Position numbers and translations under genes: made by a program. 64,000 nucleotides of DNA from Desulfurivibrionaceae bacterium. GTDB taxonomy: Bacteria; Desulfobacterota; Desulfobulbia; Desulfobulbales; SURF-16. Of this stretch, positions 17,568 to 39,265 are shown piece by piece; within the stretch, counting starts at the first letter, position 1, and the number at the start of each line of letters is the position of its first letter. The stretch covers positions 26,440 to 90,439 of the forward strand of contig JAVLBA010000001.1 of NCBI GenBank assembly GCA_031581485.1. Reading direction: 5' to 3'. Below the pieces are notes generated by a model. The model was not told where the DNA came from, searched no databases, and saw only the letters and a list, made by a program, of their open reading frames with translations.

Positions 17568-19343
17568 ATGGCATTGCATGAAAAATTAGCACGTTTTTAT
17601 CAGGATAATCTGCCTGGCGCGGTTATTGAAGGCACTACGCTCAAGGCGCCCTGTCCCTTTTGCGCGAGCCGGGGCCGCAAAGAGCCGGGAACCCTGGTGG
17701 TCTTTTTGGATGAGGATAGTTTTTTTGCCGGCTATTTCCGCTGTCTGAGCCGCTGCGTGGCCGGTGGCTTTGCCCCCCATTTTGCCCGACTGCGCCTGCT
17801 CGATGCGGACACCGTGCCCGGCTATGATCCCGATCAGCAGCCGTACGTCGACAATGTTGCCTGGCCCCTGAAAAATATCAACCAGGATATCCTCAAGTAC
17901 CAAAACAGCATGACCAGCGCGGTGCGGGAAGGCTTCAGCCGGATCGGGGTGGGCCCGGCGGTCCTCCAGGAGCTGCGGATCGGTTTTAACGGCCGCTATA
18001 TTGTCTATCCCTATTTTCAGGAAAACGGCTGCTGCTATGCCGCCCATTGTCTGGCCCCCCAGGGCAGCGGCGAAGAGTTCTGGTACGGGGAAGAGGCGCT
18101 GGCGGCCGGGGAGTTCCGCCTCTTCAACCTGCCGGATATCGGCCGTTGCCAGGGGGGCGCCCTCTTTGTGGTGGAGGGCGAAGAGAATCTCCTCTGCCTG
18201 CGGGAACAGGGGTATCCCGGCGTGGCCGTACCCAGGGCCGCTGATCTGGCCGCCCTGGACAGCCAAAGGTTTGCCGCTGTTGAGACCCTCTTTATGGTGG
18301 TGAATCATACGCCGGAATCAGAGGCGTCGGCGCGCCTTTTCGCCAGCCGGCTTGGCTTCAAGGCCCGTCTCCTCAAATGGCCCGGCCATGCCCCGCGTGA
18401 TTTCAATCTGGCCCGGATGGCCCAGCAGGAGGGCGATAATTTCAGGGCGGAACTGCAGAAAATGATCAGGGCAGCCCGGGCCTTTTCGCCCTTTAACACC
18501 CCCGATCGTGAATATACCCTTTTTCTGGAAAATCTGGAGCGGCGCCAGAGTGCGAGCTACCAGGCCTTAAAGAGCGGCATGCCCTGTCTCGATGAGGTGC
18601 TGGGCGGCATCCACGGCATCAATATCATCGGTGGGGCGCCCAAGGCGGGCAAGAGCTGTCTCGCCATCCAGCTGGCCAGCCAGATGGCGGCCAGCCAAGT
18701 GCCGGTGATCTATTATGATTTTGAGAACGGCCGCCAGAAGATCTACCAACGGACCATGGCCCGGCTGAGCCGGCTGCCAGTGGCCCGCTTTAACGACCAG
18801 CTGGAGGGCGACGACCAGCATCGTTTCAGCCAGGCCCAAGACGAGCTGCGCACCATGATGTTCTGGTTCCGGGTGGTCAACGACCGCCAGCTCAACCCGG
18901 AGATCATGCGCCGCCATGTTGATTTTCTGCGGCACGAGACCCACCGCCAGGACGCAGTGATCGTCATCGACTCGCTGCACAAGCTGCCCTTCAAGGATTT
19001 CTCGGAGCGCCGCACCGGCATTGACGCCTGGCTGCGGGAGATGGAGTCGATCCGGGACGAGTATAACGTCGCCTTTCTGGTCATCTCCGAGCTCAACCGG
19101 CAGGAGGGGGGGCGCTATGACGGTGTGCCCCATATGGGCATGTTCAAGGGCTCCGGCGATATTGAGTACACTGCGGATAATGCCCTGGTCTTTCTGCCCG
19201 ACTGGGACCCGGTGGACAGCCGTACCGCCAACCGGGTCAATTCCCTGTGGCTGGTGGCCAGCCGGGAGAATTCTCCCGGCCTGGTGGCCCGCTATCATCT
19301 CGACTACCCCTTCTGGGGCTTCAGGGAGAGGGCCGAGGAGTAG
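17568..19343 (+). CDS. Zn-finger/TOPRIM/DnaB-type (SF4) primase-helicase fusion
   Basis: CPFC...CLSRC, VVEGEEN, Walker [39 protein letters not shown]. Confidence 0.8.
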
Positions 19344-24037: not shown

Positions 24038-24568
24038 ATGAAATACGCAGGAATTAAAAAACCACTATCTTGGATCTTTTTTCTTAGTCTCCTTATTTTT
24101 GCGGCACCTGCTGGCGCTGCAACGCCTGCTGATATTGCAGAGATCCCCTCGTGCGGCTATTGCGGTATGGATCGGGAAAAATTTGCCCACTCCAGGGTCT
24201 ATCTGTCATATGCAGACGGCACCAAGGCAGGGGTATGTTCTCTGCACTGCGCCGCCATTGAGATGATTGTCAAATTAGATAAGGAACCCCTGGAAATTAT
24301 GGTTGGTGATTTCAACACCCGGGAGTTAATTAATGCCGATAAAGCCTACTGGGTCATTGGTGGTGATATGATGGGCGTCATGACCAGAAGGGCGAAGTGG
24401 GCCTTTGCTGACAAGGCGGCGGCTGAGAAGTTTATCAAGGAACATGGCGGCACCATGGCCACCTTTGAAGAGGCGCTGAAGGCCTCTTTTGAGGATATGT
24501 ATGAAGACGTAAACATGATAAGAGAAAAGAGAAAGATGATGCGGATGAAAAAGATGCAGCACATGTAA
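24038..24568 (+). CDS. NosL family copper chaperone
   Basis: Signal peptide, CGYCGM, CSLHC, AYWVIGG..GVM, FIKEHGG, Met-rich tail. Confidence 0.85.
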   Translation: MKYAGIKKPLSWIFFLSLLIFAAPAGAATPADIAEIPSCGYCGMDREKFAHSRVYLSYADGTKAGVCSLHCAAIEMIVKLDKEPLEIMVGDFNTRELINADKAYWVIGGDMMGVMTRRAKWAFADKAAAEKFIKEHGGTMATFEEALKASFEDMYEDVNMIREKRKMMRMKKMQHM

Positions 24569-24658
24569 AGGTGGTTGTGGTTACCAGTAAAGAACGGCAA
24601 TTACATATCACCACTAAAATGAGCCGGATTGATTCCGTATCAATTAGGATAGGTTGAG

Positions 24659-25372
24659 ATGAAAAAAATTATAGGCAAGGCTCTCTTATCTCTCTTAAAA
24701 CGGTCGCCAGCCCTGTTTGAGAGATACAGCGAAGAACATAAACACTCCTTGCAAGTGGCCCATGATAAACTGGCAGAAATTAACCTTGAACTGGAGGAGA
24801 AAAGCGCTGAAACTATTCAGGAGCTCATGGAAAAAAATGCCGAACTGGAAAGGCTTTCCATTTCGGATCCGCACACCCGGCTTTACAATCGGCGCCATTT
24901 TGACACATACCTGCTCAAGGAGTGGTACCGAGCCCAGCGCAGTCACGATCATATATCCCTGATTCTTTGTGACCTGGACCACTTCCATGCCTATAATGAG
25001 GCCTATGGATATGAGACGGGCAATGAGTGTATTCATCATGTCGCCCAGGTAATAGCTCACTTCACCAGACGGCCCTATGATATCCCGGCTAGATACGGCA
25101 GCAAAAAGTTTGCGGCCATTCTGCCCCATACCGATACAGACGGGGCCATGATTATCGCAACCGGCATCAAGGATGAAGTGGAAAAAATAGCGATTCCACA
25201 CATTAAATCACCCATTAAGAACATTGTCACCGTAAGCTTTGGCGTCGCCACCGTGCTCCCTGAAAAGGGTAAAGATTGCGCCGCCCTTATCGCCATGACA
25301 GAAGAGGCCCTTTGTGAGGCCAAAAGCGGGGGCCGGGACCGAATATCTGCCAAGAGGGCTGCAGGGATATAG
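24659..25372 (+). CDS. degenerate GGDEF-domain protein
   Basis: Coiled coil, DPHTRLYNRR, DLDHF, RYGSKKF in place of RYGGEEF, VTVSFG, AKSGGRD. Confidence 0.85.
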   Translation: MKKIIGKALLSLLKRSPALFERYSEEHKHSLQVAHDKLAEINLELEEKSAETIQELMEKNAELERLSISDPHTRLYNRRHFDTYLLKEWYRAQRSHDHISLILCDLDHFHAYNEAYGYETGNECIHHVAQVIAHFTRRPYDIPARYGSKKFAAILPHTDTDGAMIIATGIKDEVEKIAIPHIKSPIKNIVTVSFGVATVLPEKGKDCAALIAMTEEALCEAKSGGRDRISAKRAAGI

Positions 25373-25568
25373 CGCCTACTGGAGAGCACCGGGCTTGCAT
25401 GCTTTTAACAGACATCCGCCCCTCTTTTCCTCAGAGGCAGCCCCTGGCCACCTAATTTTTTACCTGGCCAGCCCATCTCTTCACCCTCTTTAAAAGAAAT
25501 CTAAAAAGGGGGTACATAACATGATCCGCCTGAGGTGGATTGATGTCGTATCTGGAGGATAGCTCGAA

Positions 25569-26045
25569 ATGAAAAAACTTCTAGGCACGATTCTCTTATC
25601 TCTTTTTCTTATTATCAGCACAGCCTATGCTGTGGGGATAAAGCCGGCAACGCCGCAGTCAGGTGATAAATGCCCTGTCTGCGGCATGTTTGTGGCCAAA
25701 TATCCTGACTGGGTCTGTGAAATAATGTACCAGGACGGTACGGTCCTCTTTTTCGACGGGACAAAAGATCTCTTTAAGTTCTACTTTGAACCTCATAAAT
25801 TCAAATCCAGCAAACAGCGTCAGAATATCAAGGCCATTTATGTGACAGAATACTATGACTTGAATTTCATTGAGGCCAGAAACGCCTTCTATGTCATGGG
25901 CAGTGATGTCTATGGCCCCATGGGCCTGGAGCTGGTTCCCTTCAAGACCGAAAAAGACGCCACAGAATTTCTCAGGGACCATCACGGCAAGAAAATTATC
26001 AGTTTCAACGATGTGGATGCTGCCCTGATCAAAACCCTTGATTGA
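25569..26045 (+). CDS. NosL family copper chaperone
   Basis: CPVCGM, FFDGTKD, YVMGSDVYGPMG, FLRDHHG. Confidence 0.9.
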   Translation: MKKLLGTILLSLFLIISTAYAVGIKPATPQSGDKCPVCGMFVAKYPDWVCEIMYQDGTVLFFDGTKDLFKFYFEPHKFKSSKQRQNIKAIYVTEYYDLNFIEARNAFYVMGSDVYGPMGLELVPFKTEKDATEFLRDHHGKKIISFNDVDAALIKTLD

Positions 26046-26149
26046 TGTATGGGGCAAAAGTCCATTTTCTGGCAGCAAAAACGCCGATTCCCCGGCATGG
26101 CGAAATATTGCCTGTTCTTTGCCTTCCTTGCGAAATAGGGTCTTAAGCT

Positions 26150-26818
26150 GTGATAGAATTTTACAATATTAAAAAAACCTTCAATCTCGGCAAAGCAAAC
26201 CAGTTTGCCGCCCTCAAAGATATCAGCCTCACTATTGAGAAAAATAAGATAACTGTCCTGAAAGGGCCGAGCGGCTCGGGTAAGACAACCCTTGCCAGTC
26301 TTATCGGCTGCATGTCCAGGCCCACCTCAGGCAGAATCAAAATAGATGGCAGAGAGATCACTTCACTGCCGGAGAGATTTTTGGCCGAGATTAGACGGGA
26401 TAATTTCGGTTTCATATTTCAGCGCTTCAATCTCATAACAGGCATCTCGGTTTTGGAAAACACCCTCTTGCCCACCTATCCCATGGGGCTAAAGTCTTCC
26501 CTGGCCCAAAAAAAGGCCATCACCCTGCTGGAAAAATTAAACATCGGTTCCAAAATTCGCCAGGAGGTTGAGAATCTCTCCAGCGGTGAACAGCAGCGGG
26601 TGGCTATTGCCAGGGCGCTGATCAATGACCCCCTCTTTATTATTGCTGACGAGCCCACTGCCCATCTTGACCAGAATATGGCGGTGAAATTCATTGATAT
26701 CGTCTCACAACTCCACGCTGAAGGCAAAACCCTGCTTATCGCCAGCCACGACCCTTTGCTCTATGATTCAGAAATCGTGCACCGGGTGATTGCCTTGCAA
26801 GATGGTCAATTAGTATAA
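26150..26818 (+). CDS. LolD/MacB-type ABC transporter ATP-binding protein
   Basis: GPSGSGKTT, GFIFQRFNL, LSSGEQQR, ADEPT, ASHD. Confidence 0.92.
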   Translation: MIEFYNIKKTFNLGKANQFAALKDISLTIEKNKITVLKGPSGSGKTTLASLIGCMSRPTSGRIKIDGREITSLPERFLAEIRRDNFGFIFQRFNLITGISVLENTLLPTYPMGLKSSLAQKKAITLLEKLNIGSKIRQEVENLSSGEQQRVAIARALINDPLFIIADEPTAHLDQNMAVKFIDIVSQLHAEGKTLLIASHDPLLYDSEIVHRVIALQDGQLV

Positions 26819-26833
26819 AGGATAGGTCATTCA

Positions 26834-27838
26834 TTGTTTATCAATCCCGCGATTATCGGTCTTACAGCTGCATCATTGCTGGTCTCAGGAGTTACCATCT
26901 ACGCCTCGATTATCGGCGCGGTGATCATCCGCTCATGGGACATCAACAGTGGCAGTGAAAGGCAGCTCCAGCTCGAAAGAAAGACCTATCTGATCTCAAC
27001 TGTCCTCAGCTACGTTCTGGTGTGTGAACTCCTCTCCCTGCTCCTGTTTGTCGTCAACGCCGACACTATGCACAGCCTGTTTACCGGTGCTATGTGTGCG
27101 GCCGGCACCCTTTATGCCAACAGTTATGGCTACCCGACCCTGTTGACTAAAATTGCCGTCTGCATCATGTCAGGAGTCTGGTTGATTGTTAATCATGTTG
27201 ACAACCGGGCCTATGACTACCCGCTGATAAAATTTAAATATGGATTTCTCCAGCTGATCACCGTCATCATTATCCTGGAAGCCGTCCTCCAGATAAATTA
27301 TTTTATGGCCCTGGATCCTGAAATAATTACCTCCTGCTGCGGCACCCTGTTCAGCGGTGAAGCCGACACCCTGACCGGCGAATTGGCCCACCTCTCCCCC
27401 CTTACCGCTAAAATGTCCTATTATCTGACCCTCACAGGCACCTTCACTGCCGGGGCCTGGTTTTTGTTGAGGGGCAGGGGGGCGTTGATCTTTTCCTTCT
27501 TTAATTCTCTGCTTTTTTTTGTCTCCCTGGCCGCGATAATCTCCTTTATCTCTCTCTATTTCTATGACCTGCCCACCCATCACTGCCCCTTCTGCATTTT
27601 ACAAAAGGAATATCATTATGCCGGCTACATTCTCTACCTGGCACTTTTTACGGCCACCATTGCTGGTGGGGGGATTGCGGCACTTGCCCCCTTCACAGGG
27701 CATAAATCCCTGGAAATGATTTTACCAAGAGTTCAACGAAAACTTTGCCTTCTTGCCATGATCGGCCATGCAGTTTTTGCCACACTGTGCACGTACCAGG
27801 TACTGTTTTCTGATTTAAAACTGGGCGGCTACTCCTGA
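26834..27838 (+). CDS. multi-TM membrane protein with Cys/His motifs
   Basis: About 8 hydrophobic helices; GAMCAAG, TSCCG, HHCPFC. Confidence 0.8.
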   Translation: MFINPAIIGLTAASLLVSGVTIYASIIGAVIIRSWDINSGSERQLQLERKTYLISTVLSYVLVCELLSLLLFVVNADTMHSLFTGAMCAAGTLYANSYGYPTLLTKIAVCIMSGVWLIVNHVDNRAYDYPLIKFKYGFLQLITVIIILEAVLQINYFMALDPEIITSCCGTLFSGEADTLTGELAHLSPLTAKMSYYLTLTGTFTAGAWFLLRGRGALIFSFFNSLLFFVSLAAIISFISLYFYDLPTHHCPFCILQKEYHYAGYILYLALFTATIAGGGIAALAPFTGHKSLEMILPRVQRKLCLLAMIGHAVFATLCTYQVLFSDLKLGGYS

Positions 27839-28146: not shown

Positions 28147-28188
28147 AGGGGAGAATTATGAAAACAAAGGGGAGGATTATGAAAACAA
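28147..28188 (+). repeat. 21-bp tandem duplication of RBS plus ATG
   Basis: AGGGGAGAATTATGAAAACAA followed by AGGGGAGGATTATGAAAACAA, one mismatch. Confidence 0.9.
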
Positions 28189-29804
28189 AACTAAATTCTT
28201 TTTGGGTATTGTTGGTAGTTCTGGCGGCAATTTTTTTCATGCAGACCAAGGCGGCATGGGCCCTGCCTGCTAACAGCCGGGTGTATCAGACCAGCTGTGT
28301 CACCTGCCACGATTCTCCTCCCAGGCTGAACGCCGTGGGCGAGGCCTTCCGCCTCAACGGTTATAAATTCCCGGACGACGAGACAAAGAGAAAACTGAAG
28401 CCGCTGCCCCTGGGTGATGAAGCTTACCAGCGCCTGTGGCCAGAGGCCATCTGGCCCGGCGAGAAGCCCGACTTCAATCCCATTTCCTTAGTGAGCATCT
28501 GGGCCCTGGAGTATCATGATAACCAGCCCATAGACCCGAAAACAGGTGAAGAGGGACCCACCTACTCTATTGTGGCCCCCCATGAGATTGAGCTGGCATG
28601 GATGTCTCCTCTGGGCGATCATATCTCCGTTTATGGTGACGCCAGATTTATCCAGGAAGACTGGGGCGGCACCGAAATGGATTCCTGGGTTGCCTTAAAG
28701 GCCTGGATCGAATTTGAGGACCTGTTCGGCATCGAGAATAAACTCAACTTGCGAGTCGGCTCGCTGGGGATGCACAGCATTCACCTGTTGACCGCCCGCA
28801 ACGAGCACGCCATGGGTTTTCAGAACTATCTGATGAATACCTATCTGCTACCGGGCCTCTCCAAGAGTTCAAGAACTACGGTCGACGAGTATCCTCAGAG
28901 CGATATTGATGAAGTAGATTTCGACATCAGATCATGGGTGGGCAACAACTTTACCATTGGGCCCAAGGTCGGCATAGAGCTCAACGGCTTTACCCGCCAT
29001 CTTGCCTATAATATCGGCGTGGTCAACGGCAAGACCGATGATCCCACCGACGGGGTCTTCTTCATGGGGTCCGGCTCCAACACGGGCCGCAAGGATTATT
29101 TTGCCAACCTGGCCATCAAGTTCGGCGGCCTTGGCTTTGACGCCTCCACCGGTGCCGAAGAGGAGGAGGACCCCTTTGCCGAAGAGACCGCGGTCAAAAA
29201 AGAAAGCGGTGACAGCCAGTTCTGGCGTGACGACAGTCTGACCGTCTCCTTTATGGGCTATAGGGGCGAGGGGGCGACCGAGCTGATCTACTATTCCAAC
29301 AGCGCAACGGCCATGTTCGCTACAGGCCAGGTAACTGAATACGTCAAGGAAGATTTCTGGCGCCTTGGTGTGGGCGCCATGTGGAAATTCAAAGATTTAA
29401 CCGTGGAAGCCGCCCATATGTGGGGGCATCATGACAATCCTTACGGTGATCTCGATACCAGGCCGGACCCAAGCGTTGAGACCAGGGTCTGGCATGTGGG
29501 TGCGCATTATTATCTCTACCCCTGGCTGGTGCCCTTCGCCAGGTTTGAAGAGCTCAAATTCTTCGATCTGCCCGGCCAAGATGTCTTATTGCTTGATGTC
29601 GAACAAGACAGACAACTGGTTACGGTGGGGGCGAAAATGCAGATTCGCCCCAATATCCACCTCAATATCGAGGGCTATTATTACACGGATACCGGAGATG
29701 CCACGGTGGTCAACCCGGACAGTACTAAATATATCGGAGTTTCTGAGGAGGCGGTATATCTTAATGATGAAACAGTAATGATGATATTGCGGGCTGAGTT
29801 TTAA
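28179..29804 (+). CDS. Cyc2-like monoheme cytochrome c fused to outer-membrane beta-barrel porin
   Basis: Signal peptide ending AWA, ALPANSRVYQTSCVTCHDSPPRLNAVGEAFRLNGY, amphipathic beta strands, terminal LRAEF. Confidence 0.78.
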   Translation: MKTKLNSFWVLLVVLAAIFFMQTKAAWALPANSRVYQTSCVTCHDSPPRLNAVGEAFRLNGYKFPDDETKRKLKPLPLGDEAYQRLWPEAIWPGEKPDFNPISLVSIWALEYHDNQPIDPKTGEEGPTYSIVAPHEIELAWMSPLGDHISVYGDARFIQEDWGGTEMDSWVALKAWIEFEDLFGIENKLNLRVGSLGMHSIHLLTARNEHAMGFQNYLMNTYLLPGLSKSSRTTVDEYPQSDIDEVDFDIRSWVGNNFTIGPKVGIELNGFTRHLAYNIGVVNGKTDDPTDGVFFMGSGSNTGRKDYFANLAIKFGGLGFDASTGAEEEEDPFAEETAVKKESGDSQFWRDDSLTVSFMGYRGEGATELIYYSNSATAMFATGQVTEYVKEDFWRLGVGAMWKFKDLTVEAAHMWGHHDNPYGDLDTRPDPSVETRVWHVGAHYYLYPWLVPFARFEELKFFDLPGQDVLLLDVEQDRQLVTVGAKMQIRPNIHLNIEGYYYTDTGDATVVNPDSTKYIGVSEEAVYLNDETVMMILRAEF

Positions 29805-29813
29805 GAAAAAGAA

Positions 29814-29884
29814 TGAAGGTTGAAGTGGCGTGGGTACGCTACGCCACTTCAACCTTCAGCCTTCAACCTTCAACCTTCAACCTT
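29814..29884. repeat. 18-bp perfect inverted repeat overlapping five CTTCAAC heptamers
   Basis: TGAAGGTTGAAGTGGCGT (29814-29831) pairs with ACGCCACTTCAACCTTCA (29841-29858); heptamers run 29847-29881. Confidence 0.9.
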
Positions 29885-29895
29885 GAGAGCTGAGG

Positions 29896-30570
29896 ATGAG
29901 AATTGCTGCGCTTTATTTTTTGATGTTAGGGGCTGTTGCCCTCATGCTGCCGATGGTTTCCCTCGCCCAGGAAGAGTCCGGCTATGGCTCGGTGGGCGGC
30001 ATCATCATGGTCTGGAAGACAATGGTTGAGACCACAGGCCCCAGAAACGCCAAAGATGTTATCGTCTATCTGGAAAGCGACAAATCCTTTCCGCCGGTAA
30101 CGGACAGACTCATACAGATGGATCAGAGGGGGTTGCTCTTTATCCCCCATGTCCTGGCCATCCAGAAGGGCACCTCGGTTGAGTTCCTCAATAATGACTC
30201 GGAAAAACATAATGTCTTTTTCCTCTTTGACAAAACCGGCGAAACTCTGGATATCGGCACCTGGGAGAGGGGGCAAAGCGTGGTTCATACCTTTAACGAA
30301 ACCGGCACAGTCATCACCCTGTGCAAGCTGCATCTGGAGATGGCGGCCAATATAATCATCCTGGATAATCCATATTATACCCATGCCGAGATTGACGGCG
30401 ATAGCCAGCGGACCACATATCGTCTAGATAGAGTTCCGCCTGGAGAGTATGTCTTGAAAACATGGCATAAAAAACTGAAGATGAAAGGAGGTGAGGCCCC
30501 CATCAAGGTTGAGGCCGGGAAGATGACCAAGGTGAATATTGCCATTACCAAAAGACAGTATGCCCACTAG
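29896..30570 (+). CDS. periplasmic cupredoxin-domain protein with carboxypeptidase-regulatory-like beta domain
   Basis: Signal peptide, MDQRGLLFIPHV, HNVF, type-1-like Cu ligands CKLHLEM, VPPGEYVLKTWH. Confidence 0.78.
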   Translation: MRIAALYFLMLGAVALMLPMVSLAQEESGYGSVGGIIMVWKTMVETTGPRNAKDVIVYLESDKSFPPVTDRLIQMDQRGLLFIPHVLAIQKGTSVEFLNNDSEKHNVFFLFDKTGETLDIGTWERGQSVVHTFNETGTVITLCKLHLEMAANIIILDNPYYTHAEIDGDSQRTTYRLDRVPPGEYVLKTWHKKLKMKGGEAPIKVEAGKMTKVNIAITKRQYAH

Positions 30571-30711
30571 CGGAACTCTCACACTGCAGGTAAGCCACAT
30601 GTCAATGTAAACAGGCGTTTGAATAGTGGAAAAAAACGACCCTCTGTCCCCGTATCCTCCAATGGATCCTTTTTTGACATGGCACTGTAAACTGAGTCTT
30701 ATTTGCAGCTT

Positions 30712-32646
30712 ATGAAAAAATATATAAAATTACTGACAATCGGCTTGGCCATAGTGCTGATTTGCGCCATGATCCCGGTACTGTTGGCAGAACCAGCACC
30801 CGAGGTCGGCCAGAAGAGGGACTTCTATATAAAGGCAGAGCTCTGGGAGTATTCCCCCCATCGCATTGTGGTGGATCAGGGGGATGAAATTCGCCTCAGA
30901 CTTGCCTCCAGGGATGTGGTCCATGGTTTTCACCTTGAAGACCACGGCATCGAGGCCACCATCTTTCCCGGGAAAATCCCTTTTTATCTCCGCAACCCTG
31001 AGACAGAAGAAAAAGCCATCCAGGTTACGGAGACTTCATTTATAGCCGACCGCTGGGGCAAGTTTTTTTACCGGTGCTCGGTTACCTGCGGCACGTTGCA
31101 CCCTTTCATGTTGGGCGAGTTGATTGTCCGGCCCAACTATCCATTTAAGGCCGCTGTCGGCGCGATGCTCGGGCTCCTTTTGGCCTCTTTCATCCTCATG
31201 TTCATGGATGCCAGGCAGCGGCCATCCCCTGACACATATGTCAGCCCGCCGCCCCCCTGGAGGCTGGACCTGTTGGCCAAGATACCTGGCCTCAGGAGGC
31301 TGCTTACCTTTAAAGGCCTGCCGTTCTCTCTTTATCTCCCTATTTTCGGCTGTCTGATCTTTTTTATCATTGCCGGTTTTTATGGCTCACCCATCGGCAA
31401 CAAAAACATCAGTGTCACCGTTGTCTGGATTTTTTGGTGGTTCTTGCTCATCTGTTTCATGATCCCCTTTGGCGCCAGAATATGGTGCATGGCCTGCCCC
31501 TTCCCTTTTCTGGGGGAGTGGCTGCAGAGGGGCAGACTGTTAGGCCCAAGCCGTGCAGACACCCGCACCCAGCCCATGAGGGGCTTAAGGAAAAAATGGC
31601 CAAAAGCCCTTTCTAATATTTGGCTGCCGAACATCCTCTTTCTCTCCCTCTGCACCTTCAGTGCCATGCTGGTCACCCGTCCGATCACCACTGCTGTGGC
31701 GCTGGTGGGTCTCACCATCCTTGCCACGGCCATCCATTATATCTACCGCAAACGTACCTTCTGCAACTATATCTGCCCGGTAGGGGGGTGGATGAGCCTG
31801 TACAGCATGGCGGGCATGGTCGAGGTACGATCCCGGTCACCATTGCTTTGTGCCGGCTGCCGGACCAGGGCCTGCGTCAACGGCAATGAACGGGGCTGGA
31901 GCTGCCCTTGGTCCCAGAACCCCAGTAAGCAGAGCCTCAACAATCACTGCGGGTTATGCATGGAGTGCATCAAATCCTGCGACAACAGCAATATGACGTT
32001 ACAGGCTCGGCCCTTTTGTACTGATACCGACATCAAGGGCTATGATCAGGCCTGGATGGCCTTTATTATGATCACCCTCGCCCTGGTCTACAGTGCCACC
32101 TATCTCGGGCCTTGGGGATTTCTCAAGAGCTGGGCCAATGTCAGCGAGGTTCGTAATTTTCAGGGATTTGCAATTTTTGCCGGCACTCTTTGGTTTACTG
32201 CCTTGATTGGTTTTCCTGCTCTCTGGTTTGTTTTTGCCTGGCTCGGCAAGGTACTCGCCGGCCGGAAAAGTGTTCCCACCAGCAAACTCTTTGTCAAGTA
32301 CTCGTATCTTCTGGTCCCCCTGGGTTTAACGGCCTGGATCTCTTTCAGTCTGCCGGCGGTGCTGGTAAATAATACCCATATAATTTCCAGCTTTTCAGAC
32401 CCCATGGGCTGGGGCTGGGACCTTTTTGGCACCGCCCACATGGAGTGGAAACCGCTTTTCCCGCATTACATTGTCTATATTCAAATAAGTTCATTGTTAA
32501 TCGGTCTGACCTTTTCCATGAAACGGGGCTACGAGATTGCGCAAAAAATTTATCCCGTGCCAAGTGAAGGAATAAGAAGCCTTATGCCCTTGGCAGCCTT
32601 GTGCACAGGAATCTCCATAATTTTGTTAAGAATTTTTGCGGGCTGA
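30712..32646 (+). CDS. CuA cupredoxin domain fused to NapH/NosR-like membrane 4Fe-4S protein
   Basis: DVVHGF...CSVTCGTLHPFM; multiple TM helices; CMACP, CNYICP, CAGCRTRAC...CP, CGLCMECIKSC. Confidence 0.82.
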   Translation: MKKYIKLLTIGLAIVLICAMIPVLLAEPAPEVGQKRDFYIKAELWEYSPHRIVVDQGDEIRLRLASRDVVHGFHLEDHGIEATIFPGKIPFYLRNPETEEKAIQVTETSFIADRWGKFFYRCSVTCGTLHPFMLGELIVRPNYPFKAAVGAMLGLLLASFILMFMDARQRPSPDTYVSPPPPWRLDLLAKIPGLRRLLTFKGLPFSLYLPIFGCLIFFIIAGFYGSPIGNKNISVTVVWIFWWFLLICFMIPFGARIWCMACPFPFLGEWLQRGRLLGPSRADTRTQPMRGLRKKWPKALSNIWLPNILFLSLCTFSAMLVTRPITTAVALVGLTILATAIHYIYRKRTFCNYICPVGGWMSLYSMAGMVEVRSRSPLLCAGCRTRACVNGNERGWSCPWSQNPSKQSLNNHCGLCMECIKSCDNSNMTLQARPFCTDTDIKGYDQAWMAFIMITLALVYSATYLGPWGFLKSWANVSEVRNFQGFAIFAGTLWFTALIGFPALWFVFAWLGKVLAGRKSVPTSKLFVKYSYLLVPLGLTAWISFSLPAVLVNNTHIISSFSDPMGWGWDLFGTAHMEWKPLFPHYIVYIQISSLLIGLTFSMKRGYEIAQKIYPVPSEGIRSLMPLAALCTGISIILLRIFAG

Positions 32647-32650
32647 CATT

Positions 32651-33823
32651 ATGAAAAGAGAGAAACTGGCCACTCTGAGTGTCATCTTCATTATCATTCT
32701 TGTCCCGGCTCTTGTGCTCTCGGCAATATGGTACAGAGAAGAACGCTTTCTGGCTGAGTATCCAGCAGGGGTAAAGGTCTTTGATATTACCGGCGTTGCT
32801 GAAAACGGTGCCTTTACCCTGGATACGGTTAATGGCCTCAACTATTGGTGGAAGAAATTCCAGCCCATGCTCGTGCATGTGTTTGTGGGGGACCAGGTTG
32901 TTTTACGATTAACGACCGCCGATGTTGTTCACCAATTTTATGTACCAGCCCTGAACCTGGGCCCCGTAAATATAAAACCGGGTCATCCCGTCCAACTTGA
33001 GTTCCTGGCTGAAAAGCCCGGGGTCTACCAGTATTTCTGCACCTCCCTCTGCGGCAATTGCCATTTTTATATGAGCGGCTGGATTGTCATAACTCCGGTT
33101 GGAGAGACCGCCTTGACACCGCCACCGATCACCTGTCCCCTTTGCGTACCCGGCTATATCGAGCGGCCTGAGGATGATTTAATTGATCTCGGGGAATATC
33201 TTTATCTGCAAAAGGGGTGCAACACCTGTCACGGCAACGCAGGTATTGGCGGGGTAGAGAATCTGAATTATGCCAAAAAGACGGTGCCGGCCCACAATGA
33301 AACAGCTAAAAAGCTTTTTCTGAAAGAGGAAGAAGATGCCGAGGCCTTTATTGATCTGATAAGCAAATATCCTGACCTGGAAAACCTGCCAGAGACCCCG
33401 GACATTCCGCGATTCCATCTGGTGTTGGCGAGATATCTAGCCACCAAAGAATTGGTAAAGAAAGGGTCGCCCGCCATAAAATTGGATGAAAATGGCCCTA
33501 TGCCCCCTCTGCAGATGCCGGCTTGGGAGGCCCAGTTGCCGGACCGTGACATAGATGCCCTTCTCAGCTATTTTCTCACCCTGCAACCCTGGGAAGAAGC
33601 GGCTATGAAGGATGGAGACGAGCCCAGATTTACTGATGAGCCAAGCTTTGATGATGAGCCAAGCTTTGGAGATGAGCCGAACTTTGGAGATGAACCCGAC
33701 TTTGGAGATGAACCGAATTTTGATGATGAGCCGGACTTTGGAGATGAACCGAACTTTGATGATGAGCCGGACTTTGGGGATGATGAGGAAAAACCGGGCT
33801 CTGAAAAGAGTGCAGGTCCTTGA
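32651..33823 (+). CDS. membrane-anchored CuA (CoxII-like) plus cytochrome c protein with acidic repeat tail
   Basis: One N-terminal TM, DVVHQF...CTSLCGNCHFYM, CPLC, heme motif CNTCH, distal MPAW. Confidence 0.82.
   Translation: MKREKLATLSVIFIIILVPALVLSAIWYREERFLAEYPAGVKVFDITGVAENGAFTLDTVNGLNYWWKKFQPMLVHVFVGDQVVLRLTTADVVHQFYVPALNLGPVNIKPGHPVQLEFLAEKPGVYQYFCTSLCGNCHFYMSGWIVITPVGETALTPPPITCPLCVPGYIERPEDDLIDLGEYLYLQKGCNTCHGNAGIGGVENLNYAKKTVPAHNETAKKLFLKEEEDAEAFIDLISKYPDLENLPETPDIPRFHLVLARYLATKELVKKGSPAIKLDENGPMPPLQMPAWEAQLPDRDIDALLSYFLTLQPWEEAAMKDGDEPRFTDEPSFDDEPSFGDEPNFGDEPDFGDEPNFDDEPDFGDEPNFDDEPDFGDDEEKPGSEKSAGP
33617..33778 (+). repeat. nine tandem 18-bp coding repeats (DEPxF[G/D/T])
   Basis: GATGAGCCGGACTTTGGA-type unit repeated nine times with variation. 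Confidence 0.95.
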
Positions 33824-34191
33824 TGAAATATAAAATTTTCGCCGGAATTTTATTATGTGAGATTCTACTCTTAACAACCCTGGCGGTCTCTGCCGCTATC
33901 TCCTCAACGAAGAGGGCTCCAGCCCTTGAGGCCAACCAGCAGCTGGTTGAAAACCTGATGCTCACTGACCTCTCGCTCTGGACCGAGACCAGCTACAGCA
34001 GGCACCCCTCGCAGGCCGATTTTTTTGCCCCCTTTCAAGATGCTCCCGGAGCCATTGAACGGTTCCCTGCTGGTTCACTGACCGCCCCTGCCGCGCTTTA
34101 TAACATATCGCAAAGAGCGGCTTCCCGGCCAAACTCTCCCGGCCGGATCGCTGAAACAGACTCCGATAATGAACAGGCGGCGAGAAAATGA
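33823..34191 (+). CDS. small membrane-anchored hypothetical protein
   Basis: TGATG and ATGA overlaps with both neighbours; N-terminal TM; LTDLSLWTETSYSRHPS. Confidence 0.75.
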   Translation: MKYKIFAGILLCEILLLTTLAVSAAISSTKRAPALEANQQLVENLMLTDLSLWTETSYSRHPSQADFFAPFQDAPGAIERFPAGSLTAPAALYNISQRAASRPNSPGRIAETDSDNEQAARK

Positions 34192-35360
34192 AGATAGAAA
34201 AACACATCCGCATACTTGAGTTTGCCCTGTCGTCACTCTTCAGGCAGAAACTCAAGAACATTATTATTATTCTGGCCTACACCTTAAATGTCTTCATCTT
34301 CTCGTCCGCTATTTTTTTCTCTGAATCCCTCAAGAATGAGGCGGTTACCTTACTGGAATACTCGCCTGAACTCATTGTCCAGAGAATGAGAGGGGGACGG
34401 CATGAACTGGTGCCGCTGCAATATGCCGAAAAAATTAAAGAGATAAGAGGGGTGACGGCGGTCACCCCTCGGTACTGGGGATACCATTACGACCCGCCGG
34501 TCAATAACAACTACACATTTTTAGGTGCCGACCAGCTGCCCCCAGAGGTATTGGAAATGGTTGAAGGCTCCTTTTACGAGCAGGAGGGCAACGATTTATG
34601 CGTTATTGGCCAAGGTGTTGCAGACGCCCGCTTTGTAGACACAGAGGACATCATTCCGGTCCTGGGGGCTGACGGTGATCTGCATGCCTTAAGGGTGGCT
34701 GGAATATTTACGGCAAAATCAAACATACTGACCAATGATCTGGTGATCCTCAAAACGGCTGATTTGAAAAAAATCTTTCTCATCCCCGATGATATGGCCA
34801 CCGACCTGGTTGTTAAGGTCAGAAACGTCAACGAGGTCTCGACAATTGCCCGGAAGATTCAGGAGATGATGCCTGATAGCAGGCCCATTGAAAAATCACA
34901 GATTATCAAAACCTATGAAGCGATATTTTCCTGGCGGGGCGGCTTGATGGTGGCGATATTTTTCGGCTCCATAACCGCCTTTTCCATCCTGGCCTGGGAC
35001 AAGGCCACCGGCCTCAGCGGCCAGGAGAGAAAAGATATAGGCATACTGAAGGCCATCGGTTGGGATACTTCCGACATTATTGAACTGAAATTCTGGGAAG
35101 GGTTTATCATCTCCAGCATGGCTTTTTTCCCCGGAATTATCTTCGCCCAGGCCCATATCTATCTGTTGGACGGCCTTATTTTTTCTCCCCTGATGAAAGG
35201 CTGGTCCAGCATCTTTCCGCAAATAAATCTGGCGCCGCAAATTGAGATTTATCATCTTATTGTGATTATCTTCCTTACCATTATCCCTTATATAACAGCG
35301 ACCCTGATCCCCTCCTGGAAAGCGGCAATCACCGATCCGGATATGATCATGAAGGGGTAA
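34188..35360 (+). CDS. FtsX/MacB-like ABC transporter permease
   Basis: 1 TM, large periplasmic domain, 3 TM; ERKDIGILKAIGW; PSWKAAITDP. Confidence 0.9.
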   Translation: MKIEKHIRILEFALSSLFRQKLKNIIIILAYTLNVFIFSSAIFFSESLKNEAVTLLEYSPELIVQRMRGGRHELVPLQYAEKIKEIRGVTAVTPRYWGYHYDPPVNNNYTFLGADQLPPEVLEMVEGSFYEQEGNDLCVIGQGVADARFVDTEDIIPVLGADGDLHALRVAGIFTAKSNILTNDLVILKTADLKKIFLIPDDMATDLVVKVRNVNEVSTIARKIQEMMPDSRPIEKSQIIKTYEAIFSWRGGLMVAIFFGSITAFSILAWDKATGLSGQERKDIGILKAIGWDTSDIIELKFWEGFIISSMAFFPGIIFAQAHIYLLDGLIFSPLMKGWSSIFPQINLAPQIEIYHLIVIIFLTIIPYITATLIPSWKAAITDPDMIMKG

Positions 35361-35372
35361 GATCCTGACAAA

Positions 35373-35813
35373 ATGCGACCTATAATTTTCACACTGTTCC
35401 TTATTCTTTTCTTCTCTGGCGGCTGCGGACCCAACAAGGCCCCTGAACACCCCCAGGTGGTTGCTGACGGAGATGTCGTTAAAGTGCCGCTCTCGGAGGT
35501 GGGTGACGGCGGGGTGCATTTCTATACCTATAAATTTGACAACAAGAATGTTAATTTTCTGGTCAGAACCGATGGCAAGGGCAAACTCCATACGCACCTG
35601 GATGCCTGCTACAGCTGTTTTAAGTATAAGATCGGTTATTATGTGGAGGATGGGGATCTTGTCTGCCGGGCCTGTCGCTATCGATATCCCCTGGCCGATG
35701 AGGAGTGGCTGTTTATTCAGGCCTGCGCCCCCATCGCTTTGAGACACAGGATCAAAGGAAACTATCTGGTCATTAAGCTCTCCCGCCTAAAGCGGGCCGG
35801 CAAGTTCTTTTGA
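35373..35813 (+). CDS. DUF2318 family lipoprotein (predicted metal/Fe-S binding)
   Basis: Lipobox-like FSGGC, HFYTY, DACYSC, GYY, VCRAC, CAPIAL. Confidence 0.8.
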   Translation: MRPIIFTLFLILFFSGGCGPNKAPEHPQVVADGDVVKVPLSEVGDGGVHFYTYKFDNKNVNFLVRTDGKGKLHTHLDACYSCFKYKIGYYVEDGDLVCRACRYRYPLADEEWLFIQACAPIALRHRIKGNYLVIKLSRLKRAGKFF

Positions 35814-35973: not shown

Positions 35974-36843
35974 TCATTGGGTGAGGCTGAAGGTAATCGG
36001 CATAGTGATCTCGGCGTCTTCCAGGGGGAGCGGGAACGGCGCGACCTGCCGCACCACAGCCATGGCCTGGCGGTCAAGCAGGTCGTATCCCGAGCTTGCC
36101 AAGACGGTGATGCCCTCCACGCCGCCCTCGTGATTGATACGGAAGGAGAGTTTGACCTGACCCGTCCAGCCTTTCTTCCGGGCCACGGCGGGATAGCGCA
36201 AGTTGCGCAGGACCCGGTCGCGGATACCGGCGAAATGGTTGGTCCGGTACTGTTCCTGGCTGCTCTGGGAGTGCTCTCCCGTGACCGCTTCCCGGCTGGC
36301 GGTCTGGGCAAGTGTGGCGGGGTTTGCTGGGCCGGATGGCGCTGGCCTGGCAAGCCCTGCAGCTGAGGCGAGTGGCTTTGGCAAAACTGTTTGTGTTGCC
36401 GATTCTACCTTGGTCGCTGCTCTTTCCTCCTGGACAAATGATTCTGCCGCTGCTGGTTCTGCTGGCGGTGTTTCAGCCACCAATGCTTCCCGTTCTGGTG
36501 CCTGTACCGCTTTTTTCTGGTGGCGCTGCTCGATAATGGGCGGATTGGCATCAACGGCGGCTTCCACAGGCCTCGTGTCTTGGCCGACTTCAGCAGCCCG
36601 TTGCAAAACTGGTGCGCTTGCTGATGCCTCAGCTGCGCTCGCTACCTTTTTCAACGGGCTGTCAGAGGTGACGGGAAGCGCGGGGGCGGACATCTCTTGG
36701 CCATTGCCGTCGAGCATGGTGAAATTCATCAGATCGATGCGCTGGGGAACGCTGACCGTGCGTGTGGCGCCGATAATCGCCAGCACCAGCAGCACATGAA
36801 TGGCACACGAAAGCAGCAGGGCCTTTATCTGTCTGGTCATCAT
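35974..36843 (-). CDS. tonB: energy transducer TonB
   Basis: SxxxH TM motif SCAIH, Ala/Pro-rich linker, YPAVARKKGWTG, SSGYDLLD. Confidence 0.9.
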   Translation of the reverse strand: MMTRQIKALLLSCAIHVLLVLAIIGATRTVSVPQRIDLMNFTMLDGNGQEMSAPALPVTSDSPLKKVASAAEASASAPVLQRAAEVGQDTRPVEAAVDANPPIIEQRHQKKAVQAPEREALVAETPPAEPAAAESFVQEERAATKVESATQTVLPKPLASAAGLARPAPSGPANPATLAQTASREAVTGEHSQSSQEQYRTNHFAGIRDRVLRNLRYPAVARKKGWTGQVKLSFRINHEGGVEGITVLASSGYDLLDRQAMAVVRQVAPFPLPLEDAEITMPITFSLTQ

Positions 36844-37220
36844 ATCTTTTCAGTCTGCAAACTCACCTTGGCAAAACCCAACCCTTTTACCGTGTTGAGC
36901 ACCTTAACAAAGTTCTGCAGGGCAATCTGCCGGTCGGCGCGGATGAGGACAGTGGTTTCCCGTTCATGGGAACGAAGCCGTTCCTCCAGGGCCGCCATGG
37001 TCACCGGTTCCGCATCCAGGACAATGGCCCCCTGTCTGTCAATATCGATCAGGATAGCCTGCTTTGTCGTTGATGTCTGACTGGCCGAGGCCTTTGGCAG
37101 GTCAACGCTGATGGTCCCCTGGGCGATAAAGGTCGAGGTGGTGAGCACAATGGTGAGCAGCACCAGCATGATGTCGATGAAGGGGATGACGTTGATGGAA
37201 TCAAACTGTGTGTCATCCAT
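36840..37220 (-). CDS. exbD: biopolymer transport protein ExbD
   Basis: INVIPFIDIMLVLL, VDLPKA, IRADR. Confidence 0.93.
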   Translation of the reverse strand: MDDTQFDSINVIPFIDIMLVLLTIVLTTSTFIAQGTISVDLPKASASQTSTTKQAILIDIDRQGAIVLDAEPVTMAALEERLRSHERETTVLIRADRQIALQNFVKVLNTVKGLGFAKVSLQTEKI

Positions 37221-37635
37221 ATTGGGACTCCCATTGAACCAGCAGCACCTTGACCCGCCGCAGCAGGAAGTTGTAGAGGATGATGGCCGGTATCGCCACC
37301 ACCAGGCCAAGAGCGGTGGCCTTGAGGGCCAGGGCCAGGCCGACCATGATCTTGCCGGTGTCCATGAAACCCTCTTGGCCGATGCCATAAAAGGTGAGCA
37401 TGATGCCCAGCACTGTGCCCAGGAGACCGATATACGGAGCATTGCTGCCGATGGTGGCGATGATGTGGAGTTTGTCGGTGAGCTCCAGTTTCAGGGTCTG
37501 GTGATCACCATAGTCAGCAAGCCGAATGCCGTTATAAAAGAGCTGGCGTTCAATGGCTATGGCCACGGCGATGACACTCATCAGTAACAGTAAACCGATA
37601 ACGCCGTAGTCAATTGTTGCCTGCAGCCAATCCAT
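37213..37635 (-). CDS. exbB: TonB-system energizer ExbB (short form)
   Basis: TIGSNAPYIGLLGTV, ALKATALGLVVAIP. Confidence 0.93.
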   Translation of the reverse strand: MDWLQATIDYGVIGLLLLMSVIAVAIAIERQLFYNGIRLADYGDHQTLKLELTDKLHIIATIGSNAPYIGLLGTVLGIMLTFYGIGQEGFMDTGKIMVGLALALKATALGLVVAIPAIILYNFLLRRVKVLLVQWESQYG

Positions 37636-37825
37636 TGCTATCTCCTTTCTTTTTTTTCTTGAATCTGGAATAGGCTGCCACTCCCAGCACCGCTACCCCA
37701 CCACCCACGCAGCCGAAGCAGGAGGCGCATCCTCCCCCAGCGCAACCGGCCGATGCCAGAAGCCCACCCACTCCACTTGCCACACCGATGCCGGTCCCGA
37801 ACAGTTTTGCACCCATATTTTTCAT
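37610..37825 (-). CDS. 71-aa Gly/Cys-rich membrane microprotein
   Basis: MKNMGAKLF...CAGGGCASCFGC...RFKKKKK; fills the gap between the Fe-S gene and exbB. Confidence 0.65.
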   Translation of the reverse strand: MKNMGAKLFGTGIGVASGVGGLLASAGCAGGGCASCFGCVGGGVAVLGVAAYSRFKKKKKGDSNGLAAGNN

Positions 37826-37829
37826 AGGA

Positions 37830-38654
37830 TCACCGATAATCAATGGCCTGCTGGGGGCAGGCCTTCTGGCATTCCCGGCAGGGGAAGCAGGAATAATGGT
37901 TGATGGTTGCCTGTTCATCCCGTTCGATGGCCCAAGTGGGACAGACATGTTCGCAGGCCCCGCAGCCATTACATTTATCAGCGTTGACCCGCATTCTTTT
38001 GCCGAACCGGGCACCGATCCTGTTAACAAGAGTGTCCAGGGCGCCGATGGGACAGAAAAAATTACAATACCCCCGGCCGCCGCGGGCCATGAAGCCGAGC
38101 AGGATGATCATGCCCAGATTGATCAGGCCGGCGGTCCGCAGGAAATAGGCAAGATCCGCCTCCATGAAGGCGGACCCGAACAAACGCGGCATGGTGGCGA
38201 AATTGCAGTAGCTGCAGCAGAGGCTCCCGATGCCAAAGAGCGGTGCCAGAAGATAAACGGCAAGGTAGCCGTAGCGCACTGGTGGGGCCGAGATGCCCGT
38301 GTAGTTGATCTGCAACTTTTTTGGCACAAGCCGGCTGCCCAGTTCGGTGGAGCTGCCCACCGGGCAGAGATGGCTGCACCAATGGCGACCAAAGAAAAGA
38401 GTGGAGAGCAGGATGGCGGCGACCAGCGCCACTCCCATGTAACTCCGTAAAAAACCCATGAAGAACTGGCTCACGGTCATGCCCTCGCGCCAGGTGAAAA
38501 ACATGCGCGGGCACCATTCGCCGCAGAAATTCACGCTACCGGTGCTGGCCTGGAAAATGAGGGCCAGGGGCGGCAGAAAGGCCATAACCGCCAGCACCAG
38601 GATCAAGGTTCGGTGTTTTGCCCACAAAGATATTTTTGTCCTGTTCGCATTCAT
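37830..38654 (-). CDS. NapH/MauN-like membrane 4Fe-4S binding protein
   Basis: CGEWCP, CSHLCP, CCSYC, CNFFCP, CNGCGACEHVCP, CFPCRECQKACP. Confidence 0.88.
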   Translation of the reverse strand: MNANRTKISLWAKHRTLILVLAVMAFLPPLALIFQASTGSVNFCGEWCPRMFFTWREGMTVSQFFMGFLRSYMGVALVAAILLSTLFFGRHWCSHLCPVGSSTELGSRLVPKKLQINYTGISAPPVRYGYLAVYLLAPLFGIGSLCCSYCNFATMPRLFGSAFMEADLAYFLRTAGLINLGMIILLGFMARGGRGYCNFFCPIGALDTLVNRIGARFGKRMRVNADKCNGCGACEHVCPTWAIERDEQATINHYSCFPCRECQKACPQQAIDYR

Positions 38655-39253: not shown

Positions 39254-39265
39254 GGCAACCGCTCC

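What the first reader, a model, noticed from the sequence alone, without database searches (positions are those of the whole stretch)
28179..29804. Divergent Cyc2-like cytochrome-porin with acidic loops
Seen: ALPANSRVY-x3-CVTCH-x3-PRL-x2-GEAFRLNGY directly after the signal peptide, then a beta-barrel ending in Phe, with acidic inserts (EEEEDPFAEE, DIDEVDFD). Known: Cyc2 has AxPxFAR[Q/K][T/Y]..CxxCH..PxL; some clusters are Fe(II) oxidases, but distant homologs are functionally unverified. The FAR position is NSR here. Inference: the extracellular electron entry or exit point, with possible metal-binding loops.
Basis: partly seen in the sequence, partly recalled or inferred. Interest (0 to 1): 0.7.

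Follow-up and report, generated by a model that had tools for sequence, protein, structure and literature searches.

The report
Haem porin heading copper electron wire
This gene encodes an outer-membrane pore protein with one haem-binding motif, of the kind iron-oxidising bacteria use, but it sits in a conserved gene set with three predicted copper electron carriers and a likely quinol-oxidising membrane protein, so it likely passes electrons out of a sulfur-cycling bacterium rather than taking them in from iron.

Summary
The ORF and its motifs are real. It is a Cyc2-type monohaem cytochrome-porin: 16 predicted strands, best structural match OprP, as for Cyc2. It fails the literal FAR motif, but only a four-protein clade has Asn there; 112 of 119 aligned relatives keep Phe. 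The acidic runs are probably not metal-binding loops: they are unconserved even at 86% identity, and EEEED lies on the predicted periplasmic side.

The context matters more. A blue-copper protein gene occurs in 71 of 79 related loci. It is followed by either a CuA/NapH/CuA-cytochrome module (22 loci, as here) or a Rieske/cytochrome b module (about 28). Both are quinol-linked, and neither is an oxidase. The host has DsrAB, NapA and NrfA, but no haem-copper oxidase subunit I or NosZ was found (93% complete). Best reading: quinol to copper carriers to haem to an external acceptor (0.45); Fe(II) uptake 0.3.

This scan noted the same cassette four times in other genomes. What I add: the signal-cleavage site sits at a fixed distance from the haem motif and no distal His/Met is conserved, which suggests the N-terminal amine is Cyc2's unidentified sixth haem ligand.

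The parts
28179..29804 (+). Cyc2-type monohaem cytochrome-porin, 541 aa (P0001)
28179..28262 (+). Predicted Sec signal peptide, residues 1-28, ending A-W-A; its last Ala is the 'A' of the published AxPxFAR consensus
   Evidence: hydropathy 8-26; Ala at this position in 238 of 257 homologues
28263..28328 (+). Mature N-terminus LPANSRVY, haem motif CVTCH (28296-28310) and PRL; Asn32 (28272-28274) replaces the conserved Phe
   Evidence: Asn codon unchanged in an independent RNA-library contig
28902..28925 (+). DIDEVDFD, in a lineage-specific insertion in the long third loop (predicted extracellular or pore side); not conserved
29157..29186 (+). EEEEDPFAEE, in the 35-residue connector between strands 8 and 9 (predicted periplasmic); not conserved
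29896..30570 (+). Exported type-1 (blue) copper protein, H105/C143/H146/M149; a homologue occurs in 71 of 79 related loci
30703..32646 (+). CuA-type domain (H74, C125, C129, H133, M136) fused to a NapH/NosH-like polytopic Fe-S membrane protein, about 10 hydrophobic segments
32636..33823 (+). Membrane-anchored CuA domain (H99, C135, C139, H143, M146) plus monohaem cytochrome c (C195/C198/H199, M294), with an acidic repeat tail
33820..35813 (+). Small exported protein, FtsX/MacB-type ABC permease, and FtrD-like (DUF2318) Cys/His-rich protein; accessory module
24038..27838 (+). Two NosL-family proteins (24038-24568, 25569-26045), a GGDEF protein, an ABC ATPase (26150-26818) and a 7-helix Cys/His-rich membrane protein (26834-27838); probable copper-supply module

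Best explanation
The protein is a predicted 16-stranded outer-membrane barrel with one c-type haem motif at its periplasmic N-terminus, and it likely forms the outer end of a copper-based wire that would carry electrons from the quinol pool out to a small, soluble, high-potential acceptor such as chelated Fe(III) or Mn(III). Proposed path: (mena)quinol to the NapH-like membrane protein, to its fused CuA domain, to the anchored CuA-cytochrome c, to the blue-copper protein, to the porin haem, to an acceptor entering the pore. NosL proteins and the ABC/FtsX/FtrD-like genes would load the three copper sites. Shown here: fold prediction, motifs, conserved ligand sets, gene order, and no oxidase or NosZ found in the host. 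Inferred: cofactor binding, order of carriers, direction and substrate.
For: Fold: 16 strands; best match OprP 2o4v, Z 24.6, rmsd 3.4 over 314 residues, one of the two templates reported for Cyc2 (PMC8406198). Synteny: blue-copper gene in 71 of 79 loci; the 8 misses are all contigs ending within about 1.2 kb of the gene. NapH-like part in 22 of 79 loci; Rieske, cytochrome b and flavo-Fe-S families in 29, 28 and 29 loci. Ligands: C143/H146/M149 in 68 of 68; both CuA sets in 12 of 12 and 19 of 19. The window protein sits in a 21-row clade (SH-aLRT 100) in which 17 rows carry the CuA/NapH module. Host: DsrA, NapA, NrfA, cytochrome c assembly, bd oxidase; no COX1 and no NosZ found at 93% completeness. 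5 of 23 close-relative genomes also lack COX1 and 17 of 23 lack NosZ. Precedent: 'HCO II-NapH-HCO II' lies in the highly transcribed nitrate reductase operon of Methanoperedens, where NapH is described as the membrane subunit of periplasmic nitrate reductases (PMC4683180, passages). The family of the closest named homologue, Desulfurivibrionaceae, couples sulfide oxidation to Fe(III) reduction (PMC12545173, passages). From established knowledge (recalled): NapH/NosH oxidise quinol; CuA and blue copper sit near +250 mV, well above menaquinone.
Against: Every characterised Cyc2-family protein is an Fe(II) oxidase. 18 of 23 close-relative genomes do hold a haem-copper oxidase-superfamily gene elsewhere, so inward flow is open to them. 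Rieske/cytochrome b complexes can run uphill (recalled). The iron-reduction paper names OmcS and multihaem porin-cytochromes in the passages seen, and its main text has no 'Cyc2' or 'cupredoxin'. The gene is patchy: 1 of 7 other genomes in the genus and 2 of 36 in the family, one a weak partial hit, so it is not core to that metabolism. The host has many multihaem cytochromes that could already do this job. A single haem in a narrow pore could reach only small dissolved acceptors (the same argument is made for dissolved Fe2+ in PMC8406198). There are no direct data on direction.
Confidence: 0.45

Rival explanations
1. Canonical direction: the porin haem oxidises dissolved Fe(II) or another external donor; electrons pass through the blue-copper and CuA carriers to a periplasmic terminal enzyme (an oxidase in most carriers, Nap here), with the NapH-like protein or Rieske complex feeding the quinone pool uphill.
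For: All three tested Cyc2 clusters oxidise Fe(II). The Acidithiobacillus chain also pairs Cyc2 with cupredoxins and a CuA oxidase (recalled). 18 of 23 close-relative genomes have COX1-family genes. The host has NapA.
Against: No COX1 found in the host or in 5 of 23 others. None appeared among the gene families shared by three or more of the 79 loci. Fe(II) to periplasmic Nap would conserve no energy, and CuA to menaquinone is about 300 mV uphill (recalled values). Keffer et al. rate cluster 3 function as most uncertain.
Confidence: 0.3
2. Reductive metal acquisition: the wire reduces Fe(III) or Cu(II) complexes at the pore so that the metal can be imported, with FtrD-like, ABC/FtsX and NosL proteins handling it.
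For: FtrD-like, FtsX/MacB and ABC ATPase genes resemble accessory genes of Ftr/P19/Fet iron uptake (Pfam; the system link is recalled). A TonB-dependent receptor with TonB/ExbBD converges on the operon (35974-41374).
Against: No Ftr1 permease or P19 among the neighbouring ORFs scanned. The TonB, ExbB and receptor genes have no hit in any of 79 loci. The NosL/FtsX/ABC/membrane module appears in only 10-19 of 79 loci, and a second copy stands on contig C195 without any porin, which fits a general copper-loading unit.
Confidence: 0.15
3. The barrel is an ordinary solute porin with a haem plug acting as a redox gate or sensor; the copper/NapH genes serve a separate periplasmic redox task such as oxidant or NO removal.
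For: Conserved charged residues in the barrel are mixed acid and base. CuA/NapH genes occur in Methanoperedens, an archaeon, beside nitrate reductase, and a molybdopterin enzyme follows them in L012.
Against: The porin-blue-copper gene pair holds across about ten phyla, and the haem motif is invariant.
Confidence: 0.1

Closest known systems
Cyc2 / Cyt572 fused cytochrome-porins (PMC8406198; PMC13741234; PMC13692758)
   Same: Signal peptide, single N-terminal CxxCH, PxL after it, length over 365 aa, 16 strands, OprP/OprO-like fold, terminal Phe. Same register from the mature N-terminus to the first Cys (residue 12) as A. ferrooxidans Cyc2 (31-aa signal, His47) and Cyt572 (Edman YPGFARKYNF, His44).
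   Different: FAR[K/Q] reads NSRV. No terminal oxidase in the operon, none found in the host. Partner genes are copper carriers plus a quinol-linked membrane protein. The host is a DsrAB-bearing anaerobe. Fe(II) oxidation is untested.
'HCO II-NapH-HCO II' genes of the Methanoperedens nitrate reductase operon (PMC4683180)
   Same: Two stand-alone oxidase-subunit-II-like proteins with one helix each around a NapH-like protein extended to nine helices, without NapG.
   Different: Here the first CuA domain is fused to NapH, the second carries a cytochrome c, and the linked outer partner is a haem porin plus blue-copper protein instead of NarGH. Sequence homology to the archaeal proteins was not tested.
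rus operon of Acidithiobacillus ferrooxidans (recalled)
   Same: Cyc2 with cytochrome c and cupredoxins in one operon.
   Different: The rus operon ends in a complete aa3 oxidase; this one has CuA domains without subunit I and a NapH-like protein instead.
Clade II nos clusters (NosZ, NosGH, NosL; recalled)
   Same: CuA plus cytochrome c, NosH/NapH-like protein, NosL chaperones, ABC genes.
   Different: No NosZ catalytic domain found in the host or in 17 of 23 close-relative genomes; no NosD, NosG or NosY among the ORFs scanned.

Membership tests
Cyc2 cytochrome-porin | Signal peptide followed by a single CxxCH | tested here: met
   Hydrophobic 8-26, AWA at 26-28, one CVTCH at 40-44; hydropathy and motif only, no SignalP
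Cyc2 cytochrome-porin | AXPXFAR[Q/K][T/Y] motif upstream of CxxCH (PMC8406198; used as a filter for its tree) | tested here: not met
   Reads ALPANSRVY: A, P, R, Y kept; F, A, K replaced. Phe in 112 of 119 aligned relatives, Asn only in P0001-P0004; Phe or Trp in 251 of 257 in the wider set. It fails the literal filter but nests among proteins that pass, so I file it as a variant.
Cyc2 cytochrome-porin | PXL four residues after CxxCH | tested here: met
   P48-R49-L50; P48 invariant
Cyc2 cytochrome-porin | At least 365 aa with a 16-stranded OprO/OprP-like barrel | tested here: met
   541 aa; 16 strands; OprP Z 24.6; 16-stranded porins lead Foldseek
Cyc2 cytochrome-porin | FeGenie HMM score or tree placement in cluster 1, 2 or 3 | not testable with these tools
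   No Cyc2-type model hit in Pfam or NCBIfam for 87 homologues, no PDB chain, no reference sequences in hand. Indirect only: a 37% relative (L019) comes from a MAG listed in PMC9769843, whose text leaves Hydrogenedentota Cyc2 homologues in cluster III by elimination; whether this very protein was on that tree could not be seen.
Cyc2 cytochrome-porin | Covalent haem c and Fe(II) oxidase activity; Fe-binding residues Y262/D308 and D137/D138 of A. ferrooxidans Cyc2 | not testable with these tools
   Needs biochemistry and the reference sequence; the host has two cytochrome c assembly genes
Nitrous oxide reductase (nos) cluster | NosZ catalytic subunit | tested here: not met
   Only the two CuA domains of this operon match TIGR04246, far under its cut-off; genome 93% complete
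Haem-copper oxidase operon | Subunit I (COX1) | tested here: not met
   No PF00115 match in the host genome (control rang in 9 of 14); genome 93% complete
Ftr/P19/Fet iron uptake system | Ftr1 permease and P19/FtrA in the cluster | tested here: not met
   Neither among 19 neighbouring ORFs scanned in Pfam; the rest of the genome was not searched for them

The most novel reading that the evidence does not exclude
A multi-phylum branch of Cyc2 works as an electron exporter on a copper wire (NapH-CuA-CuA/cytochrome c-blue copper-porin haem), so cyc2 hits in anaerobes mark metal reduction rather than iron oxidation. Family-wide, the unidentified sixth haem ligand is the alpha-amino group freed by signal-peptide cleavage, as in cytochrome f, with the conserved Phe at mature position 4 shielding the haem; this protein is a natural Phe-to-Asn variant with a shifted potential.
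Probability: 0.3. Interest if true: 0.8.

Novelty: new variant of a known kind. Interest (0 to 1): 0.5.

Why it matters
cyc2 is widely used as a marker for iron oxidation, and cluster 3 homologues dominate many subsurface surveys while their function is unverified (PMC8406198, PMC8478452, PMC9769843). A conserved link to quinol-oxidising modules in oxidase-free anaerobes would change how those surveys are read. The operon is complete in a cultured strain (Desulfoluna limicola, L017), so direction is testable. The N-terminal-amine proposal addresses a concrete gap: EPR shows two axial ligands in one Cyc2, yet models find only one His.

Tried and rejected
1. Pfam and NCBIfam gave no family for P0001 or a relevant one for 87 homologues, bar one weak Porin_4 hit. 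PDB sequence searches gave only chance LptE hits or nothing.
2. Complex prediction of barrel plus blue-copper protein plus haem gave no answer (score 0.14 against a mark of 0.32); it is not used either way.
3. A single-sequence fold of the CuA-NapH protein was unusable (pLDDT 41.8).
4. Cluster placement: the plasmid search gave two weak Caballeronia hits (E 0.5); supplements of PMC7029218 hold no sequence list, and its detailed tree is on figshare, which I could not see.
5. RNA evidence: one metatranscriptome run with a 0.06 word share gave short contigs over parts of the operon; DNA carry-over is not excluded, so expression is not shown.
6. Rejected readings: acidic metal-binding loops; nos accessory cluster; split oxidase; sequencing error at Asn32 (shared by P0002-P0004 and by the contig); the second 'CxxCH' of the 32636-33823 protein as a haem site (it is part of the CuA motif).
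7. No tRNA marks the low-GC island; promoter and terminator scans were at chance level.
8. The literature search for cytochrome f residues returned nothing useful, so that comparison is recalled.
9. The tree is the quick version; 5 of 80 rows were left out as short or lacking the motif in the called ORF.

Full report
Observation. window 28179-29804 (+) encodes 541 residues ending in Phe; the opposite strand is broken by stops. After a hydrophobic stretch at 8-26 and A-W-A comes LPANSRVYQTS-CVTCH-DSP-PRL-NAVGEAFRLNGY. Both acidic stretches are present (242-249, 327-336). The gene is single-copy in the genome.

Family. The homologue search gave 214 proteins at E <= 0.001 among 7,995 scored candidates, with 120 listed; the wider library gave 828. 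In the alignment of 119 of the listed proteins (one partial sequence left out), R34, C40, C43, H44, P48, G54 and G61 are invariant and the consensus reads AxAxPAFARKYQTSCxTCHxxFPRLN. This is the Cyc2 signature given by Keffer et al. (PMC8406198; passages and section 13 read). Position 32 is Phe in 112, Trp in 3 and Asn in 4, namely P0001-P0004. The Asn is not an error: three independent proteins share it, and a contig from another sample differs at 13 places over 28159-28469 but not in that codon. AlphaFold2 gives pLDDT 85.3 and 16 long strands. Foldseek returns 16-stranded porins, and the wide search ranks OprP first (Z 24.6, rmsd 3.4, 314 aligned), one of the two templates named for Cyc2. 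The protein therefore works like a Cyc2 structurally. It fails the literal PXFAR filter those authors used, so I file it as a variant. Cluster placement could not be tested; an indirect link through L019 and PMC9769843 (passages, section 15 and a supplement search) points to cluster 3.

Acidic stretches. Counting from a periplasmic C-terminus (PMC13692758, passage), connectors alternate: odd ones are 7-66 residues, even ones 1-10 residues except the eighth, which is 35. EEEEDPFAEE lies in that eighth connector, so it is predicted periplasmic; I had no model coordinates, so this rests on parity. DIDEVDFD lies in an insertion in loop 3. Neither is conserved: the 86% relative has VEAADDPFAEE and DIDTSAYD; 3 of 118 homologues are as acidic in either segment; 4 of 118 have any run of five. 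A run of five arises in 3.6% of shuffles. Specific metal-binding loops are not supported.

Haem ligand. No His or Met column other than H44 and the start Met reaches 50% in the alignment; K72 is 98% conserved. In 257 of 265 proteins with an early CxxCH, the residue 12 places before the first Cys is Ala in 238 and Ala, Gly or Ser in 251, followed two places later by Pro (247) and four places later by Phe (245). So the 'A' of the consensus is the signal-cleavage residue, and the mature N-terminus is held at a fixed distance from the haem. Published numbers fit: A. ferrooxidans Cyc2 has a 31-residue signal and His47; Cyt572 begins YPGFARKYNF by Edman sequencing with His44; models of all three reference proteins show one axial ligand (PMC13741234; section 19 and passages), whereas EPR of Ghiorsea Cyc2 shows two, which its authors read as His or Met (PMC13692758; passages). 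Cytochrome f starts Y-P-x-F-A and binds its haem through the N-terminal amine (recalled; one search found no source). I infer the same for Cyc2, with Lys72 as the alternative. Searches for Cyc2 with cytochrome f, amino group, axial, sixth, distal or N-terminal amine terms showed no such proposal in the listings or passages seen; subscription papers are not covered.

Context. The gene heads a same-strand run: a blue-copper protein; a CuA domain fused to a NapH-like polyferredoxin; an anchored CuA-cytochrome c; a small protein; an FtsX permease; an FtrD-like protein. Upstream lie two NosL proteins, an ABC ATPase and a Cys/His-rich membrane protein. Of 324 confirmed genomic stretches, the best 79 loci were fetched. 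The blue-copper gene is in 71, just downstream in 69; all 8 misses are contig ends. The NapH-like part is in 22. Flavo-Fe-S, Rieske and cytochrome b families are in 29, 29 and 28, usually followed by a multihaem cytochrome. Copper ligands are fully conserved where covered. The quick tree puts the window protein in a 21-row clade from Desulfobacterota, Acidobacteriota, Planctomycetota, Myxococcota and others, 17 rows of which have the CuA/NapH module; kin share labels, so this shows clustering, not co-evolution. The NosL/FtsX/ABC module is in 10-19 loci and has a porin-free paralogue on contig C195, so it is accessory. GC is 47-53% across 22-36 kb against 56% for the genome, and only 2 of 60 relatives match, one weakly: a patchy, probably mobile island.

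Host. The closest named homologue is from a Desulfurivibrionaceae MAG (86%, with the same upstream genes); host taxonomy was not tested with core genes. The genome (93% complete) has DsrA, NapA, NrfA, a bd oxidase and 26 ORFs with three or more CxxCH motifs, and no COX1 or NosZ was found. Among 23 genomes behind the closest or cassette-bearing loci, 18 have COX1-family genes and 6 have NosZ; completeness was not given for them.

Mechanism. Both alternative membrane partners are quinol-linked and neither is a terminal oxidase. The CuA-NapH-CuA arrangement is known from the Methanoperedens nitrate reductase operon (PMC4683180; passages). With high-potential copper carriers and a menaquinone host (recalled), outward flow is downhill and inward flow would lack an energy-conserving sink here. 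Desulfurivibrionaceae are reported to reduce Fe(III) with sulfide, though through multihaem proteins (PMC12545173; passages). I put an electron conduit of either direction at about 0.75: export 0.45, uptake 0.3. Against export: all tested relatives are oxidases, most carriers have an oxidase elsewhere, and no experiment bears on direction. He et al. already allowed that Cyc2 homologues may serve other electron-transfer roles (PMC5566968; passages).

Novelty. Searches for Cyc2 with cupredoxin, NosL, NapH, Rieske or the host taxa showed no description of this operon in listings and the passages read; figshare and Dryad files of the Cyc2 phylogeny papers (PMC7029218, PMC12442345; passages only) could not be seen and may include relatives. 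PMC8478452 (passages) shows how common cluster 3 calls are. This scan had noted the cassette four times in other genomes. I had found the synteny independently, but the Methanoperedens lead and the preference for export came from those notes. Verdict: a real, new variant of a known kind; interest 0.5.

Noticed in passing
window 33600-33823: The CuA-cytochrome c ends in about eight acidic repeats (DEPSF, DEPNF, DEPDF); relatives are about 315-335 aa and appear to lack this tail.
   Followed up: partly
L002:7944-8298: In the closest relative, the gene after the porin starts like the blue-copper gene but has a lipoprotein-like Cys followed by long Ala/Lys/Glu repeats running off the contig; possibly a tethered version.
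   Followed up: partly
G000:C195:11916-18282: A second NosL, small protein, FtsX, ABC ATPase and 7-helix membrane protein module with a thioredoxin-like gene and an exported 382-aa one-CxxCH protein, near a Psr/Phs-like molybdoenzyme; no porin.
   Followed up: partly
L047:11951-19127 and about 28 other loci: Cyc2-type porin plus blue copper followed by a flavo-Fe-S NAD(P) oxidoreductase, Rieske protein, split cytochrome b and an eight-CxxCH cytochrome; present in two cultured Geothrix strains (L033, L044).
   Followed up: partly
L012:15340-19758: A 1472-aa molybdopterin oxidoreductase directly follows the CuA module in a betaproteobacterial MAG, echoing the Methanoperedens arrangement.
   Followed up: no
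L005:5682-8294; L065 and L069: Two Cyc2-type genes in tandem in L005, and two copies on one Ignavibacteriae contig.
   Followed up: no
window 35974-41374 (-): TonB-dependent receptor (best NCBIfam hit PqqU, far under cut-off), unknown 200-aa protein, second NapH-like protein, ExbB/ExbD and TonB converge on the operon; not found beside any of 79 homologues.
   Followed up: partly
window 28158-28190: Tandem duplicated start region (two ATGAAAACAAA, each with a purine-rich ribosome site) giving two possible starts seven codons apart.
   Followed up: no
window 29840-29885: Short repeats of TTCAACC between the porin and blue-copper genes.
   Followed up: no
window 17568-19343: Fused primase/DnaB-like helicase-type ORF (591 aa) between thiL-like and uvrB-like genes; identified by eye, not scanned.
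   Followed up: no
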